Positions 2,739-38,843 of a stretch of DNA of 64,000 nucleotides are shown piece by piece (positions within the stretch are counted from its first letter, which is position 1; the number at the start of each line of letters is the position of its first letter). The notes beneath the pieces were generated by a model. That model made no database searches. It was not told where the DNA came from and was given only the letters and a program-made list of their open reading frames with translations. A program made the translations under genes and the position numbers. The DNA lies in IMG/VR virus record IMGVR_UViG_2703718869_000013, positions 32,001-96,000 of that record; one strand, 5' to 3'. This DNA comes from a virus. Its lineage: Duplodnaviria; Heunggongvirae; Uroviricota; Caudoviricetes.

Positions 2739-4328
2739 ATGTCTCAATATTCAATTCAACAGTCATTAGGTAATGCATCCGGCGTCGCGGTTAGCCCGAT
2801 CAATGCCGATGCGACGTTATCTACCGGTGTTGCATTAAATAGCAGCTTGTGGGCTGGTATTGGCGTATTTGCGCGTGGCAAGCCGTTTACTGTTCTTGCG
2901 GTTACTGAGTCCAATTACAAAGATGTTCTCGGCGAACCGCTGAAGCCGTCTTCCGGCTCACAGTTCGAACCAATTCGCCATGTATACGAAGCTATTCAGC
3001 AAACGTCAGGTTATGTTGTTCGTGCTGTTCCGGATGATGCGAAGTTCCCGATTATTATGTTCGATGAATCAGGCGAACCGGCTTACAGTGCGTTGCCATA
3101 CGGTTCTGAAATTGAACTTGATAGTGGCGAAGCCTTTGCTATCTACGTTGATGATGGTGATCCGTGTATTTCACCTACCCGTGAGTTAACCATCGAAACG
3201 GCAACAGCGGACAGCGCGGGTAATGAACGCTTCCTCTTAAAACTGACCCAGACGACTTCGCTCGGCGTGGTAACGACCCTGGAGACACACACTGTGTCTT
3301 TGGCGGAAGAAGCGAAAGATGACATGGGCCGCTTGTGTTATCTGCCTACGGCTCTGGAAGCCCGTTCTAAATATCTGCGCGCGGTTGTTAATGAAGAGCT
3401 GATTTCGACGGCGAAAGTAACAAATAAAAAATCGCTGGCGTTCACTGGTGGTACCAACGGTGATCAGTCGAAAATCTCAACCGCTGCGTACCTGCGTGCG
3501 GTTAAGGTGCTGAACAATGCGCCGTACATGTACACCGCTGTTCTCGGCCTGGGTTGCTATGACAATGCGGCGATCACCGCGTTAGGTAATATCTGTTCTG
3601 ATCGCCTGATTGATGGCTTCTTTGATGTCAAACCGACATTGACGTATACGGAAGCGCTCTCTGCTGTTGAAGATACCGGTTTACTTGGTACCGATTATGT
3701 AAGCTGTGCTGTCTATCACTACCCGTTCTCCTGCAAAGACAAATGGACCCAATCCCGTGTGGTCTTTGGTCTGTCTGGCGTGGCGTATGCGGCGAAAGCT
3801 CGTGGCGTCAAGAAAAACTCTGATGTCGGCGGTTGGCATTACTCACCGGCTGGTGAAGAACGTGCCGTCATTGCTCGTGCGTCAATTCAACCGCTGTATC
3901 CGGAAGATACCCCGGACGAAGAAGCAATGGTCAAGGGCCGTCTCAATAAAGTATCTGTTGGCACCTCTGGCCAGATGATCATCGACGATGCTTTAACTTG
4001 CTGCACGCAGGATAACTATCTGCACTTCCAGCACGTCCCATCCCTGATGAATGCAATCAGCCGTTTCTTTGTCCAGTTAGCCCGACAGATGAAGCATAGC
4101 CCGGACGGTATTACTGCGGCTGGCCTGACTAAAGGGATGACCAAACTTTTAGATCGCTTTGTCGCCTCCGGCGCTCTGGTGGCTCCTCGTGATCCTGATG
4201 CTGACGGTACAGAACCGTATGTGCTGAAAGTTACGCAGGCGGAATTCGATAAATGGGAAGTAGTCTGGGCCTGCTGCCCGACTGGCGTAGCCCGTCGTAT
4301 CCAGGGCGTACCGCTGCTTATTAAGTAA
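2739..4328 (+). CDS. Putative tail sheath protein (P1 gene 22 position)
   Basis: 529-aa ORF following the head gene; assigned by synteny and size. Confidence 0.45.
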   Translation: MSQYSIQQSLGNASGVAVSPINADATLSTGVALNSSLWAGIGVFARGKPFTVLAVTESNYKDVLGEPLKPSSGSQFEPIRHVYEAIQQTSGYVVRAVPDDAKFPIIMFDESGEPAYSALPYGSEIELDSGEAFAIYVDDGDPCISPTRELTIETATADSAGNERFLLKLTQTTSLGVVTTLETHTVSLAEEAKDDMGRLCYLPTALEARSKYLRAVVNEELISTAKVTNKKSLAFTGGTNGDQSKISTAAYLRAVKVLNNAPYMYTAVLGLGCYDNAAITALGNICSDRLIDGFFDVKPTLTYTEALSAVEDTGLLGTDYVSCAVYHYPFSCKDKWTQSRVVFGLSGVAYAAKARGVKKNSDVGGWHYSPAGEERAVIARASIQPLYPEDTPDEEAMVKGRLNKVSVGTSGQMIIDDALTCCTQDNYLHFQHVPSLMNAISRFFVQLARQMKHSPDGITAAGLTKGMTKLLDRFVASGALVAPRDPDADGTEPYVLKVTQAEFDKWEVVWACCPTGVARRIQGVPLLIK

Positions 4329-4337
4329 GGGAATACA

Positions 4338-5153
4338 ATGAGCAAAAACTTTTTTCAATCCGGGGCATTTTTGGGGAATGGACTGTCTCGTTTCGCTTTG
4401 AACTCTGATCCTGTGCAGCTGATGGAGTCCGCCCGAGCAAGCGCCGAACAGCCAACAGATCCGGTTATTAATAATAATCCGGAACCGGCGGCACAGACTA
4501 ACGATAACGTTCCATCTGATCCGGCTCCTGAGCAAATCCTGGAAGGGAAAGACGGTAAAGAATGGACCGTCGAACAGGCGCACCAGATGATTCTGGAAGC
4601 TGCAAATAGAAGTGCTATGCAGAATGCGTTGAGTGATGCGGCCGACGCCGTTTTCGCCTGGGCTGATAGCGGTGATCTGACTTTCGACTCCCTTGATGGT
4701 TTCGTTCAGGCTATCGCTGGTATCTCTGATGACGACGACTCCGAAGTTACAGAAGAACAGGACGATGCCTATAACGAAGCATGGGCAAATGTTGCTGACT
4801 TCCTCGCAGCATGCGGTGTAGATGATGACCTGATCGAAGCACTGGCTGACGATGAAGACGACGACGCAGCTGCTGATGTTGGTGCCTCTATCGCTGGTTT
4901 AGATAGCGACGACCGCGACGAACTGGAAGCGGCGTTTGTTGTTGCTGGCACTTCTGATGAAATGCTGACTGAAGCATTTAAGAAGGTTGTTCGTAATGGT
5001 GAGATCAAACTCATCCGTAAACGCCTGCGTAAAAAACGTCTGACTGCGGCTCAAAAATCGGCGCTGAAAAAAGCACGCCGTAAAGCCCAGACCGGCGCGG
5101 CAAAACTGGCCCGCAAAAAGTCAATGAAACTGCGCCGTAAGCGCCTTGGCTAA
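4338..5153 (+). CDS. Hypothetical virion-associated protein, acidic body with strongly basic K/R-rich C-terminal tail
   Basis: ORF with biased composition (D/E-rich middle, KRLRKKR-type tail); followed by hairpin terminator. Confidence 0.55.
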   Translation: MSKNFFQSGAFLGNGLSRFALNSDPVQLMESARASAEQPTDPVINNNPEPAAQTNDNVPSDPAPEQILEGKDGKEWTVEQAHQMILEAANRSAMQNALSDAADAVFAWADSGDLTFDSLDGFVQAIAGISDDDDSEVTEEQDDAYNEAWANVADFLAACGVDDDLIEALADDEDDDAAADVGASIAGLDSDDRDELEAAFVVAGTSDEMLTEAFKKVVRNGEIKLIRKRLRKKRLTAAQKSALKKARRKAQTGAAKLARKKSMKLRRKRLG

Positions 5154-34938: not shown

Positions 34939-35068
34939 CAGGAATTGGCATAGAATTGATTGTTCAAATTTCATCCATCACATAGACGACTTCATGTTAT
35001 TTGCCTGATAATTATGGCCTTAATAACCCATGTATATCTTTTGGGTTATATTCTTATCTTTAACAAGG

Positions 35069-35112
35069 TTATAAGAGCGACAATGATAAATTTATCACTA
35101 TCGCTCTTATAA
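35069..35112. repeat. 44-bp near-perfect AT-rich palindrome (TTATAAGAGCGA..GATAAATTTATC..TCGCTCTTATAA)
   Basis: Arms differ only at the caat/tagt positions; lies between convergent genes. Confidence 0.6.
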
Positions 35113-35141
35113 CTCTTTGTTAGCTATAGCTTTAAACAAAT

Positions 35142-35429
35142 TTAGTTTTGAGGCAATGCAACAAAAGTCAGCTCTTGATCTTTGATTAATGCTTTTGTTT
35201 GTTTGGATGTAATTCCCACTTTAGTTTTTACATCATTGTGGAGCTTCTTATACGCTTTTATTTCATCTGCTGTATATCGGAAGCCATTTGCACTGTTACT
35301 GGACAGTTGAAGTGCGATTACGTCATCACTGACACCCGCATCGCTTAGCTTAGCTATGCGGGTAATAGTGTGGCCTGCGCGAGTGTTTGTGGTGGATATT
35401 TTGTCTAAGAAATTGTTCAGTTTTTCCAT
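35142..35429 (-). CDS. Hypothetical protein
   Basis: 95-aa ORF with ATG start; no motif recognised. Confidence 0.5.
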   Translation of the reverse strand: MEKLNNFLDKISTTNTRAGHTITRIAKLSDAGVSDDVIALQLSSNSANGFRYTADEIKAYKKLHNDVKTKVGITSKQTKALIKDQELTFVALPQN

Positions 35430-35647
35430 TGTTTACAACCTCTTACTTGAGTTTATTGCCAGTAGAATTGCCACTATTCTTTTGCCTCAACGAATCACAA
35501 TGTACTGGAATAAGAAACTATGAGCAATACTTACGCTTTGCGAATACAGAAGATGAATAATCAACTTATTACTAAAATGTTAATAATATTATTCTGTTAC
35601 ATAGTGTTCGCTATAACAATCGGGAGTTGAATGCTAATTCAATAAAT

Positions 35648-35677
35648 AAAGAACCCGCCAATTGGCGGGTTCTTTTT
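35648..35677. terminator. Bidirectional-type terminator (AAAGAACCCGCC-aatt-GGCGGGTTCTTTTT)
   Basis: Perfect stem flanked by A-run and T-run. Confidence 0.7.
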
Positions 35678-36458
35678 AATCACTTTCCACTTCTTCCGTG
35701 GTGTTTTCTTGCAGTTCTGTTAATGCAGCACGACATAGGTTCCGGGCATTGGCTATAGCCACACTTTTGACTTCATCCGTCATCGTGCAGGTAATGTACT
35801 GATCGAGTTCTTCAGCGCGGATGATGCTTTTGCCAATCAGAAACTGTATTTGCCAGAGCAGATCGGCATCCATAATCAGAATTTCTGCCGGGCCTTCAGG
35901 GCCAGCCGGGAAGGAAACATAAGACTGTTTGCCCAGGCCGACAACTCGACAACTTGCTTCAAGAATTGCGCGCTTGAGGTCTGACTTTATAACGGAAACA
36001 GGTTGATTTTCACCAGTGATTACGCCGTTGACATGGAAAGGCATGTAGCTTGAAATACGCTCCACTTTCCACACACCAGCAAGCGATCCTTCATGCAGCA
36101 CAATGGGGGTAACCGCGAGTTTCATCTCACCATATAGCTGCTGGCAGATAGCTGGATTGCTGAATACATCTAAAGGCTCACATTCAAACAGCGGCGCAAT
36201 CTGCATGAGGTCCATCATGGTCATCCCTGGGGTACGAGCAGTAATGAATCTGCGCATACCAGTATCCATTGCGCTCCAGATTGCTACACCATGCTTTTTG
36301 CTCACTTCTTCAGTAAAGCCAAGGTGGCACATGATGGTTTTTTCGATAGCCAGATCAGAGATCGAAACCTTTTCGCCAGGCACACCATCATTATTGATGG
36401 TCACTTCGACACTCTGACCATTACGCAGGCGGTATTGAATTGCTTTAGTATTTTCCAC
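35676..36458 (-). CDS. Hypothetical protein
   Basis: 260-aa ORF, GTG start, co-oriented with upstream DUF2829-like gene. Confidence 0.55.
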   Translation of the reverse strand: MENTKAIQYRLRNGQSVEVTINNDGVPGEKVSISDLAIEKTIMCHLGFTEEVSKKHGVAIWSAMDTGMRRFITARTPGMTMMDLMQIAPLFECEPLDVFSNPAICQQLYGEMKLAVTPIVLHEGSLAGVWKVERISSYMPFHVNGVITGENQPVSVIKSDLKRAILEASCRVVGLGKQSYVSFPAGPEGPAEILIMDADLLWQIQFLIGKSIIRAEELDQYITCTMTDEVKSVAIANARNLCRAALTELQENTTEEVESD

Positions 36459-36464
36459 GTTAAA

Positions 36465-37142
36465 TCACTCCACTACAAACCAGTCACATGCCAGTAAGTC
36501 GCCTACAGAAGGAACCCACGGAACAACTACACCTTGTGCATTTTTTAAGGCGAAATAAGCACCATACGGAACGAGGTCGCCGGGGAAATATCCCTTAATG
36601 GCTTCCATTCGTGCCGGGTACTGTCCTTCAGGAACCAGCCAGCAGAATTGGTTTTCGCCGTTCCACCCGCGTCGGGCAACTTTCTTGCCATCCTTCAGCC
36701 ACATCAGCGCGTCAGAAAAGTCGGCTGCTTCAAGGTCGATTTCTTCTTGTAGAGTAGCGATACCGCCAGCAGAAATAGTTACGTCCCTGGCTGTAATGAA
36801 TGTCACCCCATTGTGACCTTCAATGCTGAGCGATACCCCATTTTCGAAGAAGTCGTTAGTCCGACTAAAGCCTTCTTCAAATGTTTTTTCTGGCGAATAG
36901 GACAGAGATCCGTCCTCATAAGCGACCAGATATCCGCCAATTTCTGGTCGGTGTTTTTGCAAAAATATTTTATCAACATGGACTTTTACCCCTTCTGGCT
37001 CAACGACTTCGATGTTGCAAAAAAGGACCACATCCATTAGGGCGATAATTTCGATATCTTTGATTTTTGAGGCGCGAACTGTTTTATGGCTTTTGTATTT
37101 TGGAAGTGCCGTCAAAAGCTCTTTCGTTGTCATGTTATTCAT
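36465..37142 (-). CDS. Hypothetical protein with C-terminal DUF2829-like (Tad2-type) domain
   Basis: C-terminal FSDALMWLKDGKKVARRGWNGENQF...DWFVVE matches the DUF2829 pattern as recalled; N-terminal 130 aa unassigned. Confidence 0.5.
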   Translation of the reverse strand: MNNMTTKELLTALPKYKSHKTVRASKIKDIEIIALMDVVLFCNIEVVEPEGVKVHVDKIFLQKHRPEIGGYLVAYEDGSLSYSPEKTFEEGFSRTNDFFENGVSLSIEGHNGVTFITARDVTISAGGIATLQEEIDLEAADFSDALMWLKDGKKVARRGWNGENQFCWLVPEGQYPARMEAIKGYFPGDLVPYGAYFALKNAQGVVVPWVPSVGDLLACDWFVVE

Positions 37143-37339
37143 AGTCTTTCCTCTGCTTAAAACCTGATGTATTGCGCCTTCAGGTGGGTCAGGAATGTTT
37201 TCCCACCAGCGAACGCAATATCTCGGGGTGTTCTATTCGTTAAAAGCGCGTGCCATTGCCAACTTTGGCGTTTTTGAGCGAGTTCGTGCTTTTGTCGGCG
37301 TCTGGACCACCGCTTTTTTTTCAGTCGTTTTTTACACAT

Positions 37340-37828
37340 TCAAAACGGAATATCGTCGTCAAAGTCCATTGGAGGTTCGTTATTAGCGTTGCTCTGAGGT
37401 TTACCGCCACCACTGTATTGCTGGTGGTTTTGAGGTTGGTTTGATTGCCCCCAGCCATTTGTGGACTGTGAATCGTCGCGACGAGCGCCGATCATTTGCA
37501 TGGTGCCGCCCTGGCTGACGATAATTTCCGTCGTGTAACGTTCTACACCGGCGTCATCTGTCCACTTACGGGTTTTAAGTTTCCCTTCGATGTAGACCTG
37601 AGAACCTTTTCGTAAATACTCACTCGCAATTTCAGCAAGTTTTCCGAACAAAACGACTTTATGCCATTCTGTTTGCTCTTTCTGTTGGCCCGTTTGCTTG
37701 TCGCGCCATGATTCATTCGTTGCGATGCTGAGTCTTCCGACCGCTCCGCCATTTGGTATATACCTGATCTCCGGGTCTTGCCCCAGGGTACCAATCAGGA
37801 TGACTTTGTTTACACCGCGTTGTGCCAC
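37340..37828 (-). CDS. ssb: Single-stranded DNA-binding protein
   Basis: OB-fold SSB sequence with Gly/Gln-rich linker and acidic DDDIPF tail. Confidence 0.95.
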
Positions 37829-37846
37829 TTATCTTACCTAATAAAA

Positions 37847-37863
37847 TAAATTAATTAGAGCAA
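37847..37863. promoter_or_regulatory. C1-operator-like site between ssb and lyz
   Basis: 16/17 match to the operator 17-mer. Confidence 0.55.
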
Positions 37864-37886
37864 TAATGTATATCTTTGAAACGTAG

Positions 37887-37910
37887 CTAACAAGTGATTT
37901 GCATTATCCT
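37887..37910 (+). promoter_or_regulatory. Late-promoter-like motif upstream of lyz (CTAACAAGTGATTTGCATTATCCT)
   Basis: Shares ACAAGTGA(C/T)TT core with the motif upstream of the head gene. Confidence 0.45.
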
Positions 37911-37997
37911 GTGCCTTCTAAAGGGATCGAGTCAGTCGGTATTGGCTGTGAATGGGTGTTTGTCCTGGAGCGTAAAAAATTCGCTTATGAGGTCTTT

Positions 37998-38555
37998 ATG
38001 AAGGGAAAAACAGCCGCAGGAGGCGGTGCAATTTGCGCTATCGCGATGATGATTACCATCGTGATGGATAATGGCAATGTGCGAACCAACCAGGCGGGGC
38101 TTGAGCTTATCGGAAACGCTGAAGGTTGCCGACGTGATCCATACAAGTGCCCGGCGGGTGTATGGACCGACGGGATCGGTAATACACACGGGGTAACGCC
38201 TGGCGTGCGAAAAACCGACCAGCAAATCGCCGCTGATTGGGAAAAGAATATCCTGATCGCTGAACGCTGTATTAACCAGCACTTCCGGGGCAAAGACATG
38301 CCCGATAATGCCTTCAGCGCAATGACAAGCGCGGCATTCAATATGGGATGCAATAGTTTACGGACCTACTACAGCAAAGCGCGAGGCATGCGAGTCGAAA
38401 CGTCCATCCACAAGTGGGCGCAGAAAGGGGAATGGGTGAATATGTGTAACCATCTCCCTGATTTTGTGAACAGTAACGGCGTCCCCCTGCCCGGGTTAAA
38501 GATTCGCCGTGAAGAAGAACGCCAGCTTTGCCTGACGGGGCTTGTCAATGAATAA
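37998..38555 (+). CDS. lyz: SAR endolysin (T4-lysozyme-like, signal-anchor-release type)
   Basis: N-terminal Gly/Ala-rich weakly hydrophobic segment followed by lysozyme catalytic region, as in P1 Lyz; internal ATG at 37998 gives the 185-aa product, track start 37899 rejected. Confidence 0.9.
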   Translation: MKGKTAAGGGAICAIAMMITIVMDNGNVRTNQAGLELIGNAEGCRRDPYKCPAGVWTDGIGNTHGVTPGVRKTDQQIAADWEKNILIAERCINQHFRGKDMPDNAFSAMTSAAFNMGCNSLRTYYSKARGMRVETSIHKWAQKGEWVNMCNHLPDFVNSNGVPLPGLKIRREEERQLCLTGLVNE

Positions 38556-38799
38556 ACTCCGGCAGCTCCGCCGACTTTCGACAATGAAGTTATCGCTGGC
38601 GGCGATAGTTTTTGACTCGATTTTCATGGCGGTATATGTGCTCAATGAGACGTGGCCACTGGAACCACTATTATATGCCGGGCTTCGGCTGTGCCTGACA
38701 TTTTTGAGCATGGCTGCAAGATTGATGCAGCAGAAAGAAACCGCTTCAGATTGCCCACGTCGCGCGGTGCGCAAATATATGGCACGCAGGCGAAGATGA
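38542..38799 (+). CDS. Small membrane protein with basic C-terminus (holin/antiholin-like topology)
   Basis: 85-aa ORF overlapping lyz stop; two hydrophobic segments and RKYMARRRR tail; may be spurious. Confidence 0.35.
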   Translation: MSMNKLRQLRRLSTMKLSLAAIVFDSIFMAVYVLNETWPLEPLLYAGLRLCLTFLSMAARLMQQKETASDCPRRAVRKYMARRRR

Positions 38800-38809
38800 T
38801 TTAACCATT

Positions 38810-38843
38810 ATTGCTCTAATAAATTTGATTTATTAGAGCAAAT
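38810..38843. promoter_or_regulatory. Tandem inverted C1 operators (ATTGCTCTAATAAATTT / GATTTATTAGAGCAAAT) upstream of module B
   Basis: First half is a 17/17 match to the operator 17-mer, second half 15/17 in inverted orientation. Confidence 0.75.

What the first reader, a model, noticed from the sequence alone, without database searches (positions are those of the whole stretch)
35676..37142. Protein with a C-terminal DUF2829-like (Thoeris anti-defence Tad2-type) domain beside ssb
The last 85 residues of the 225-aa product (FSDALMWLKDGKKVARRGWNGENQF...DWFVVE) match the DUF2829 pattern as I remember it, the family that includes Tad2, which sequesters the Thoeris signalling molecule. It is fused to a 140-aa unknown N-terminal domain and followed by a 260-aa unknown, near the Dar antirestriction genes. 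A phage-plasmid anti-defence cluster here would be plausible.
Basis: partly seen in the sequence, partly recalled or inferred. Interest (0 to 1): 0.55.

Follow-up and report, generated by a model that had tools for sequence, protein, structure and literature searches.

The report
Tad2-family sponge gene in P1-like phage-plasmid
A P1-like phage-plasmid carries, just after its ssb gene, an already catalogued kind of anti-defence gene (a Tad2-family protein predicted to bind bacterial immune signal molecules), here fused to a module resembling a phage capsid-decoration protein; the gene after it is P1's isaA, whose function is unknown.

Summary

The "unknown" N-terminal part is a phage L Dec-type OB fold (residues 1-97) followed by a short beta-rich stalk (98-135). 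The 260-aa neighbour is P1 IsaA (95% identity). Its function is unknown and it is non-essential in P1.

ssb, the Tad2-like gene and isaA appear to form one unit. A C1 operator lies upstream and a strong terminator lies downstream. Reference P1 lacks exactly the 225-aa ORF, and its isaA sits behind the same ribosome-binding site and ATG. D6-type phage-plasmids carry Tad2-like plus isaA beside cre.

The three modules recombine independently. Other alleles fuse the Tad2 domain to dUTPase or to Sequestin.

The gene most likely encodes an early-expressed sponge for TIR-derived or related nucleotide immune signals. The ligand is not determined.

A 2025 preprint already reports Tad2 in 56% of P1-type and 93% of D6-type phage-plasmids, so interest is modest. 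The Dec-like fusion partner is the one undescribed aspect.

The parts
37848..37864 (-). C1 repressor operator (Op21/Ossb type), ATTGCTCTAATTAATTT, upstream of ssb
   Evidence: One mismatch to the 17-bp C1 operator consensus. The window holds 13 such sites against 0.37 expected. The same position is annotated as the C1-controlled operator Ossb in P1 and P7.
37340..37828 (-). ssb, first gene of the unit
   Evidence: Pfam SSB E=6.9e-40. About 97-98% DNA identity to P1/P7 ssb.
37157..37339 (-). ssb-to-Tad2-like spacer. It holds a 60-aa very basic ORF of unknown status, and no consensus promoter was found in it.
   Evidence: ORF list. The sigma-70 scan found no promoter-like site in 35300-38000. 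The spacer DNA is conserved in P1.
37146..37153 (-). Shine-Dalgarno GAGGAAAG, 3 nt before the ATG of the 225-aa gene
   Evidence: Read from the sequence. In P1 the homologous sequence (GAGAAAAG, then the same ATG) precedes isaA.
36852..37142 (-). Module 1 of the 225-aa protein (aa 1-97): OB-fold domain of the phage L Dec type
36738..36851 (-). Module 2 (aa 98-135): beta-rich stalk or linker, FENGVSLSIEGHNGVTFITARDVTISAGGIATLQEE
   Evidence: Four short strands with low pLDDT (47-56) in the monomer model. The profile alignment to Dec runs on into Dec's spike region, to Dec residue 122. The segment varies between alleles: two beta types, one helical type, or short linkers. It is retained in the OB-less D6 allele.
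36468..36737 (-). Module 3 (aa 136-225): Tad2 (PF11195/DUF2829) domain. The stop codon is at 36465-36467.
35676..36458 (-). isaA homolog (260 aa, GTG start 6 nt after the Tad2-like stop)
35648..35675 (-). Intrinsic terminator directly after the isaA stop
   Evidence: 12-bp stem with 7 G-C pairs, followed by ATTTATT.

Best explanation
The 225-aa gene encodes a Tad2-family 'sponge'. [quoted passage not shown]

It sits in a three-gene unit, ssb then the Tad2-like gene then isaA. The unit lies behind a C1-repressor operator and ends at a strong terminator. It should therefore be switched on as soon as C1 repression is absent, that is on infection or induction, which is when a sponge is needed.

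The C-terminal 90 residues are the ligand-binding module. They are closest to ModTad2, the tested homolog that binds His-ADPR (type II Thoeris) and cUMP/cCMP (Pycsar) and does not block type I Thoeris. The N-terminal Dec-like OB fold plus stalk is most likely an oligomerisation or scaffold module, and it is exchangeable. In other alleles a trimeric dUTPase or nothing takes its place.

Shown: domain identity, fold, conservation of the ligand-contact residues, gene order, the operator, the terminator, and presence or absence across relatives.

Inferred: co-transcription, early timing, tetramer formation, the ligand, and the anti-defence effect.
For: - Pfam PF11195 at E=1.6e-22.
- Sequence hits to five solved Tad2 proteins, best ModTad2 at E=6e-20.
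- All 44 aligned family members keep W160, W209 and D215; S212 is kept in 43 of 44; N161 is kept in 33 and replaced by K or R in the rest. These align with SPO1 Tad2 W25, W73, D79, S76 and N26, which contact gcADPR.
- The beta2-beta3 region has the same length as in ModTad2 (a one-residue gap). That insertion creates ModTad2's second pocket.
- A C1 operator lies at 37848-37864, annotated as Ossb in P1 and P7. No internal promoter-like site was found, and there is a terminator after isaA.
- The gene behaves as an accessory cassette. It is absent from P1 and P7 and present in SJ46, Ro157c2YLVW and D6 and in 229 PLSDB plasmids.
- Sibling alleles fuse the same Tad2 domain to Sequestin (PF21825), a proven sponge, or to dUTPase.
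- Published work shows that Tad2 homologs inhibit Thoeris I, II and IV, Pycsar and CBASS by sequestration, and that sponge-sponge fusions work.
- DefenseFinder calls Tad2 in 56% of P1 and 93% of D6 phage-plasmids.
Against: - No experiment exists on this protein or any allele of it that I could find. It is not among the sequences I could locate in the supplement of the 84-sponge screen (that file was cut when stored).
- Characterised Tad2 proteins are about 90-aa stand-alone tetramers. Whether a 135-residue N-terminal, probably trimer-forming, extension is compatible with the tetramer that forms the pockets is unknown.
- T78 of SPO1 Tad2, an adenine contact, is Gly here, so specificity cannot be read from the sequence.
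- I could not obtain the ModTad2 His-ADPR contact residues from the papers held.
- Co-transcription with ssb is inferred from the lack of a promoter match in a simple scan.
Confidence: 0.72

Rival explanations
1. Two sponges in one chain. The Dec-like OB domain, with or without the stalk, is itself a second ligand-binding module for a different immune signal, so the protein blocks two signalling defences at once, as Acb4-Tad2 and Tad2-Sequestin fusions do.
Against: Its only significant relative is a capsid-binding decoration protein, not a nucleotide binder. No pocket analysis or oligomer model could be made. The D6 allele deletes the OB domain but keeps the stalk and Tad2. A metabolic enzyme, dUTPase, occupies the same position in other alleles. 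Both facts fit a scaffold role as well as a sponge role.
Confidence: 0.15
2. A structural protein. The Dec-like OB fold and trimeric stalk attach the protein to the P1-type capsid as a decoration protein, or load it into the virion as happens for the Dar proteins. The Tad2 domain would then be displayed or delivered rather than made in the cell after infection.
For: The N-terminal 135 residues match the full layout of phage L Dec (134 aa): OB legs, a short helix, then a beta spike. The gene lies next to the Dar antirestriction genes, whose products are packaged in P1 heads (the packaging is established knowledge about P1).
Against: The gene sits behind the C1-controlled ssb promoter region and is not in a late operon. 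The annotated late promoter there, LPlyz, points the other way. P1 and P7 make normal virions without the gene. The D6 allele lacks the OB domain. A sponge on the outside of a capsid would have no access to cytoplasmic signals.
Confidence: 0.06
3. An anti-CRISPR of the AcrIIA7 type. DUF2829 proteins were first reported as inhibitors of type II-A Cas9.
Against: The Tad2 discovery paper notes that Cas9 binding was never shown and argues that the family is anti-Thoeris. The hosts here are Escherichia, Salmonella and Shigella, which as far as I know do not carry type II CRISPR-Cas. ModTad2 is a much closer relative than AcrIIA7 (77 against 48 bits).
Confidence: 0.03

Closest known systems
ModTad2 (MoTad2), Myroides odoratus prophage, PDB 9EIB/8V3E
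   Different: ModTad2 is an 89-aa stand-alone protein. The window protein carries a 135-residue N-terminal OB-plus-stalk extension. Ligand binding has not been tested here, and the residue before the conserved Asp is Gly rather than Ser.
SPO1 Tad2 (Gp34.65), PDB 8SME/F/G, founding member of the family
   Same: Same Pfam family and fold. The gcADPR contacts W25, N26, W73, S76 and D79 are conserved as W160, N161, W209, S212 and D215.
   Different: It is only distantly similar (E=1e-9). T78, I63, T65, D67 and H71 are replaced. SPO1 Tad2 lacks the ModTad2-type insertion, and its second pocket is occluded by F44 stacking.
Sponge fusions: Acb4-Tad2 (Pasteurella phage Pm86) and Tad2-Sequestin (PF21825)
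   Same: These have a Tad2 domain joined to another module in one chain. The Acb4-Tad2 fusion was shown to block both Thoeris and CBASS. Tad2-Sequestin alleles at 79-85% identity in the Tad2 domain occur in related ~90-kb elements.
   Different: The partner here is neither Acb4 (PF13876) nor Sequestin. There is no Pfam hit at E<=10, and the fold is an OB barrel, not the dsRBM-like fold of Acb4 or a helical one.
Phage L decoration protein Dec (PDB 6E3C)
   Different: Dec is a late structural protein that binds P22/L capsids as a trimer. The module here lies in an early, C1-controlled unit, is fused to a sponge domain, and is dispensable in some alleles. Capsid binding was not tested.
P1 IsaA (P1_gp017)
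   Same: The 260-aa downstream gene is 95% identical, lies in the same position relative to ssb, and ends at the same terminator region.
   Different: In reference P1, isaA directly follows the spacer and uses the ATG that serves the Tad2-like gene here. P1's 320-aa annotation carries an extra 58 N-terminal residues.

Membership tests
Tad2 / PF11195 (DUF2829) sponge family | Match to the family HMM above the curated threshold | tested here: met
   80.2 bits against a cut-off of 25, E=1.6e-22, profile positions 2-73 of 73.
Tad2 / PF11195 (DUF2829) sponge family | Tad2 fold: an N-terminal helix, then an antiparallel sheet with short helices in the loops | tested here: met
Tad2 / PF11195 (DUF2829) sponge family | Conserved ligand-contact residues (SPO1 Tad2 W25, N26, W73, S76, D79) | tested here: met
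   W160, N161, W209, S212 and D215 align with them. W160, W209 and D215 are invariant in all 44 aligned homologs. The adenine contact T78 is Gly.
Tad2 / PF11195 (DUF2829) sponge family | Homotetramer with pockets at the protomer interfaces | not testable with these tools
   Only monomer prediction was available. The effect of the N-terminal fusion on tetramer assembly is unknown.
Tad2 / PF11195 (DUF2829) sponge family | Binds and sequesters a defence signalling nucleotide and relieves the defence | not testable with these tools
   This needs binding assays and phage challenge. No published test of this allele was found.
Phage L Dec-type decoration protein | Dec-type OB fold with detectable sequence homology | tested here: met
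Phage L Dec-type decoration protein | C-terminal three-stranded beta-helix that trimerises | tested here: inconclusive
   Residues 98-135 are beta-rich but have low confidence in a monomer model. They align to Dec 90-122 in the profile alignment. No oligomer model could be made.
Phage L Dec-type decoration protein | Late expression and binding to the capsid surface | tested here: not met
   The context is an early-type unit behind a C1 operator with ssb. P1 and P7 lack the gene. Capsid binding itself was not tested.
P1 IsaA (phrog_2326) | Full-length sequence homology and conserved position downstream of ssb | tested here: met
   95% identity over 260 aa. phrog_2326 E=1.5e-149. Synteny with P1 and SJ46.
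P1 IsaB | Sequence homology of the 225-aa protein to IsaB | tested here: not met
   BLASTP gave no significant alignment (best E=2.2).

The most novel reading that the evidence does not exclude
The Dec-like OB-plus-stalk module is not just a handle. It may be a previously unrecognised sponge or ligand-binding domain recruited from a capsid-decoration protein. Alternatively it may be a trimerising module (the role a trimeric dUTPase could play in sibling alleles) that joins tetrameric Tad2 units into a higher-order assembly. Either reading would be a new architecture for phage signal sequestration. The locus between ssb or cre and isaA in P1- and D6-type phage-plasmids would then be a site where such modules are shuffled.
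Probability: 0.15. Interest if true: 0.6.

Novelty: new variant of a known kind. Interest (0 to 1): 0.35.

Why it matters
P1-type phage-plasmids are widespread in clinical Escherichia, Shigella and Salmonella, and P1 is a standard laboratory phage. The laboratory reference lacks this gene although many natural relatives have it, so lab P1 may under-represent the family's ability to evade signalling defences.

The allele series could serve as a natural experiment on how sponge specificity and architecture evolve. It includes three Tad2-domain variants, one of which changes a ligand-contacting Asn to Lys. It also includes several stalk types, and partners of OB, dUTPase, Sequestin or none.

The gene's presence in these elements is already catalogued, and no new mechanism is demonstrated here.

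Tried and rejected
- **isaB identity.** I tested whether the 225-aa gene is P1 isaB. It is not.
- **IsaA as an obligate Tad2 partner.** Rejected. IsaA occurs without Tad2 in P1 and in distant D6-like elements. The 226-aa gene after the Tad2-Sequestin alleles is unrelated to IsaA.
- **ModTad2 contact residues.** I tried to obtain the ModTad2 His-ADPR contact residues. The journal paper is not held, and the preprints give them only in figures.
- **Earlier experimental test of this allele.** I looked in the supplement of the sponge screen for this sequence. It was not found, but that file was cut when stored.
- **Tool limits.** A degenerate DNA motif scan found only the same architecture again, in three ~62-kb viral contigs. 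A word-indexed search with the N-domain alone returned only the same family.

Full report
**Observation.** The window is a P1-type (Punavirus) phage-plasmid. Positions 35000-38600 match Escherichia phage vB_EcoM-Ro157c2YLVW at 99% over the full length. The same stretch matches Salmonella phage SJ46 at 98% and phage P1 at 96% over part of it.

- On the minus strand lie ssb (37340-37828), a 225-aa ORF (36465-37142) and a 260-aa ORF (35676-36458).
- Residues 141-224 of the 225-aa product match Pfam PF11195 'Tad2-like' (the former DUF2829) at E=1.6e-22, 80 bits against a threshold of 25.
- The Dar genes are annotated in the homologous DNA directly upstream.

**The Tad2 domain.**

- By sequence, the C-terminal 90 residues match five solved Tad2 proteins:

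| Solved protein | PDB entry | E-value |
|---|---|---|
| ModTad2 | 9eib/8v3e | 6e-21 (about 47% identity) |
| HgmTad2/AcrIIA7 | 8kbi | 1e-11 |
| AcrIIA7 | 9kzr | 8e-11 |
| SPO1 Tad2 | 8sme | 1e-9 |
| SptTad2 | 8wjd | 3e-9 |

- The SPO1 Tad2 residues reported to hold gcADPR are W25, N26, W73, S76 and D79. They align with W160, N161, W209, S212 and D215.
- W160, W209 and D215 are invariant in all 44 aligned homologs. N161 is Lys in ten of them and Arg in one.
- The adenine contact T78 is Gly here.
- The loop between strands 2 and 3 has the ModTad2 length, with a one-residue gap. In ModTad2 this insertion opens a second pocket. That pocket was later assigned to cUMP/cCMP.
- On present evidence the domain belongs to the ModTad2 clade. 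That clade inhibits type II Thoeris and Pycsar, and ModTad2 itself does not inhibit type I Thoeris. The ligand of this protein remains an inference.

**The N-terminal part is not unknown.**

- Residues 1-97 fold with high confidence (pLDDT about 82-94 over residues 11-90) into a small beta barrel followed by a short helix.
- A profile of 18 N-terminal regions finds Dec as its only significant PDB hit, at E=3e-7. Profile-sequence comparison gives 95.5% probability, E=1.5e-8.
- The two share the motif P-E-x-G-G-Y-L...G-x-L-x-Y...F-E-x-x-Y.
- Dec is 134 residues long: OB 'legs', a helix at 78-86, and a C-terminal three-stranded beta-helix spike that forms only in the trimer.
- The window protein has the same order over its first 135 residues. 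Residues 98-135 (FENGVSLSIEGHNGVTFITARDVTISAGGIATLQEE) are predicted as short strands with low confidence in the monomer. The profile alignment extends into Dec's spike region.
- The N-terminal module is not Acb4 or any other Pfam family.

**Operon and regulation.**

- A 17-bp C1 operator with one mismatch lies at 37848-37864, just upstream of ssb. This is the position annotated as Ossb/Op21 in P1 and P7.
- A simple scan found no sigma-70-like site between ssb and the end of isaA.
- The 225-aa gene has a GAGGAAAG ribosome-binding site.
- isaA starts at a GTG 6 nt after the Tad2-like stop.
- A 12-bp G+C-rich hairpin with a T-rich tail directly follows the isaA stop, at 35675-35648.
- I infer a single C1-repressed transcription unit, which would be expressed early.

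**Comparison with relatives.**

- *P1.* Reference P1 is collinear with the window on both sides but lacks window positions 36455-37138, which is essentially the 225-aa ORF. In P1 the homologous ribosome-binding region and the same ATG are followed directly by isaA, giving M-T-A-Q-N-T-K. The Tad2-like ORF therefore behaves as a cassette, present or absent between a fixed translation start and isaA.
- *P7.* P7 lacks both genes and has nmpC at that position.
- *D6.* D6 is a different phage-plasmid lineage. It carries a separate dUTPase gene, a 146-aa Tad2-like gene and an isaA homolog next to its cre-like recombinase. Its Tad2-like protein keeps the first 20 residues, the stalk and the Tad2 domain but has no OB domain. 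Its Tad2 DNA is 97% identical to the window, while its IsaA is only about 50% identical.
- *Other alleles.* Across 143 homologs, the Tad2 domain appears with the OB-stalk module, with an N-terminal dUTPase, with a C-terminal Sequestin (PF21825) domain, or with other extensions.
- *Mosaicism.* Segment-wise identities show free recombination. P0004 is 64/86/100% identical to the window in OB/stalk/Tad2. P0015 is 57/44/100%, and P0021 is 69/89/62%.
- *Tad2-domain variants.* Three circulate, differing mainly in the second-pocket loop. One of them has E-W-K-G in place of G-W-N-G.
- *Distribution.* The gene is in 229 PLSDB plasmids. Nearly all of those are non-mobilizable; the listed ones are mostly about 90-105 kb and come from Escherichia, Salmonella and Shigella. 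Most of the listed records are annotated 'DUF2829 domain-containing protein'.

**IsaA.**

- The 260-aa product is 95% identical to P1 IsaA. P1's 320-aa annotation adds 58 N-terminal residues.
- The family is small: 30 cluster representatives among 1.84 billion proteins.
- It has no Pfam or PDB sequence match.
- It models well, at pLDDT 87 and pTM 0.83.
- In more distant D6-like elements IsaA homologs follow cre, phrog_1968 and phrog_6669, with a dUTPase-Tad2 fusion inserted just upstream in some and not in others.
- P1 CRISPRi scored ssb, isaA and isaB as non-essential.
- IsaA is thus a backbone accessory gene of unknown function. The Tad2 cassette repeatedly lands in front of it. I found no evidence that IsaA is itself anti-defence.

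**Mechanism and rivals.** My best explanation, at about 0.7 confidence, is an early-expressed Tad2-family sponge that sequesters TIR-derived or related nucleotide signals. The OB-stalk would act as an exchangeable oligomerisation or scaffold module.

- *Two-sponge fusion (0.15).* This is suggested by published Tad2-Acb4 and Tad2-Sequestin fusions.
- *Dec-like structural or virion-associated role (0.06).* The early C1-controlled context and the gene's absence from P1 and P7 argue against it.
- *AcrIIA7-type anti-CRISPR role (0.03).* This is unlikely in these hosts and is questioned in the literature.

**What is known already.**

- Tad2 is a well-characterised family.
- A 2025 preprint screened 1,592 P1/D6 phage-plasmid sequences with DefenseFinder. 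It reports 'Tad2 AcrIIA7 (anti-Thoeris)' in 56% of P1-type and 93% of D6-type elements.
- The presence of the gene is therefore not new.
- In the papers I could search I did not find any of the following described:
  - the homology of the N-terminal module to Dec;
  - the cassette-type presence or absence relative to reference P1 at a shared start codon;
  - the three-module mosaicism;
  - the placement of this domain nearest the His-ADPR/cUMP-binding ModTad2.
- I rate it a new architectural variant of a known kind, of modest interest.

Noticed in passing
L001 (P1 NC_005856) 3001-3963, compared with window 35676-37163: P1's isaA is annotated as 320 aa, starting 29 nt after ssb. The 264-aa form (cluster P0124, 803 members) starts at the ATG that in this window starts the Tad2-like gene, with the same upstream ribosome-binding region. 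SJ46's 281-aa annotation of the Tad2-like gene has the same kind of 56-residue N-terminal extension, and that reading frame is closed in this window. Both long annotations look over-extended.
   Followed up: partly
window 35000-35650 (ORF 35142-35429, minus strand): A low-GC stretch (0.39) holds a 95-aa ORF with no Pfam match. It occupies the position where P1 has isaB plus IS1. Among the deposited phages it matched only vB_EcoM-Ro157c2YLVW.
   Followed up: partly
window 37157-37339, minus strand: A 60-aa, very basic ORF (MCKKRLKKKRWSRRRQKHELAQKRQ...) starts at an ATG immediately after the ssb stop codon and fills the ssb-to-Tad2-like spacer. The DNA is conserved in P1. Whether it is translated is unknown.
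   Followed up: no
homologs P0021, P0028, P0031, P0033, P0050 and others (alignment A1): One allele class of the Tad2 domain has R-E-W-K-G-E in place of R-G-W-N-G-E, so the phosphate-contacting Asn becomes Lys. It also has a much shorter beta2-beta3 loop. A second class has an 8-residue insertion (ELEINFDS) in that loop. These may be specificity variants.
   Followed up: partly
L004 (D6) 4048-4997; L014 4001-4726; L009 5064-5978: dUTPase is either a separate gene directly upstream of the Tad2-like gene (D6) or fused to it (241-aa and 304-aa proteins). Both dUTPase and a Dec-type stalk are trimer-forming (this rests on my own knowledge, not on a tool result), so a trimeric N-terminal partner of Tad2 may be a recurring theme.
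   Followed up: no
L012, L013, L016 around 4001-4870: Tad2-Sequestin fusion genes (191 and 289 aa) occur in another group of ~77-95-kb elements. They are preceded by a RecA-dependent-nuclease-family gene and followed by an unrelated 220-226-aa gene and a HigB/HTH pair.
   Followed up: partly
window, 13 sites including 9920, 11590, 38810, 46436 and 50716: C1-operator-like 17-mers occur 13 times against 0.37 expected. Two are perfect copies, and there is an adjacent pair at 38810-38842. This is the typical dispersed P1 immunity operator set.
   Followed up: no
L018 3137-3853 (IMG/VR contig of 61.6 kb, the same length as the contig recorded for the Klebsiella phage SopranoGao homolog P0097): The same OB-linker-Tad2 architecture occurs in a ~62-kb non-P1 phage. 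It lies just after a repressor-like gene, so the fusion is not confined to P1/D6 phage-plasmids.
   Followed up: partly
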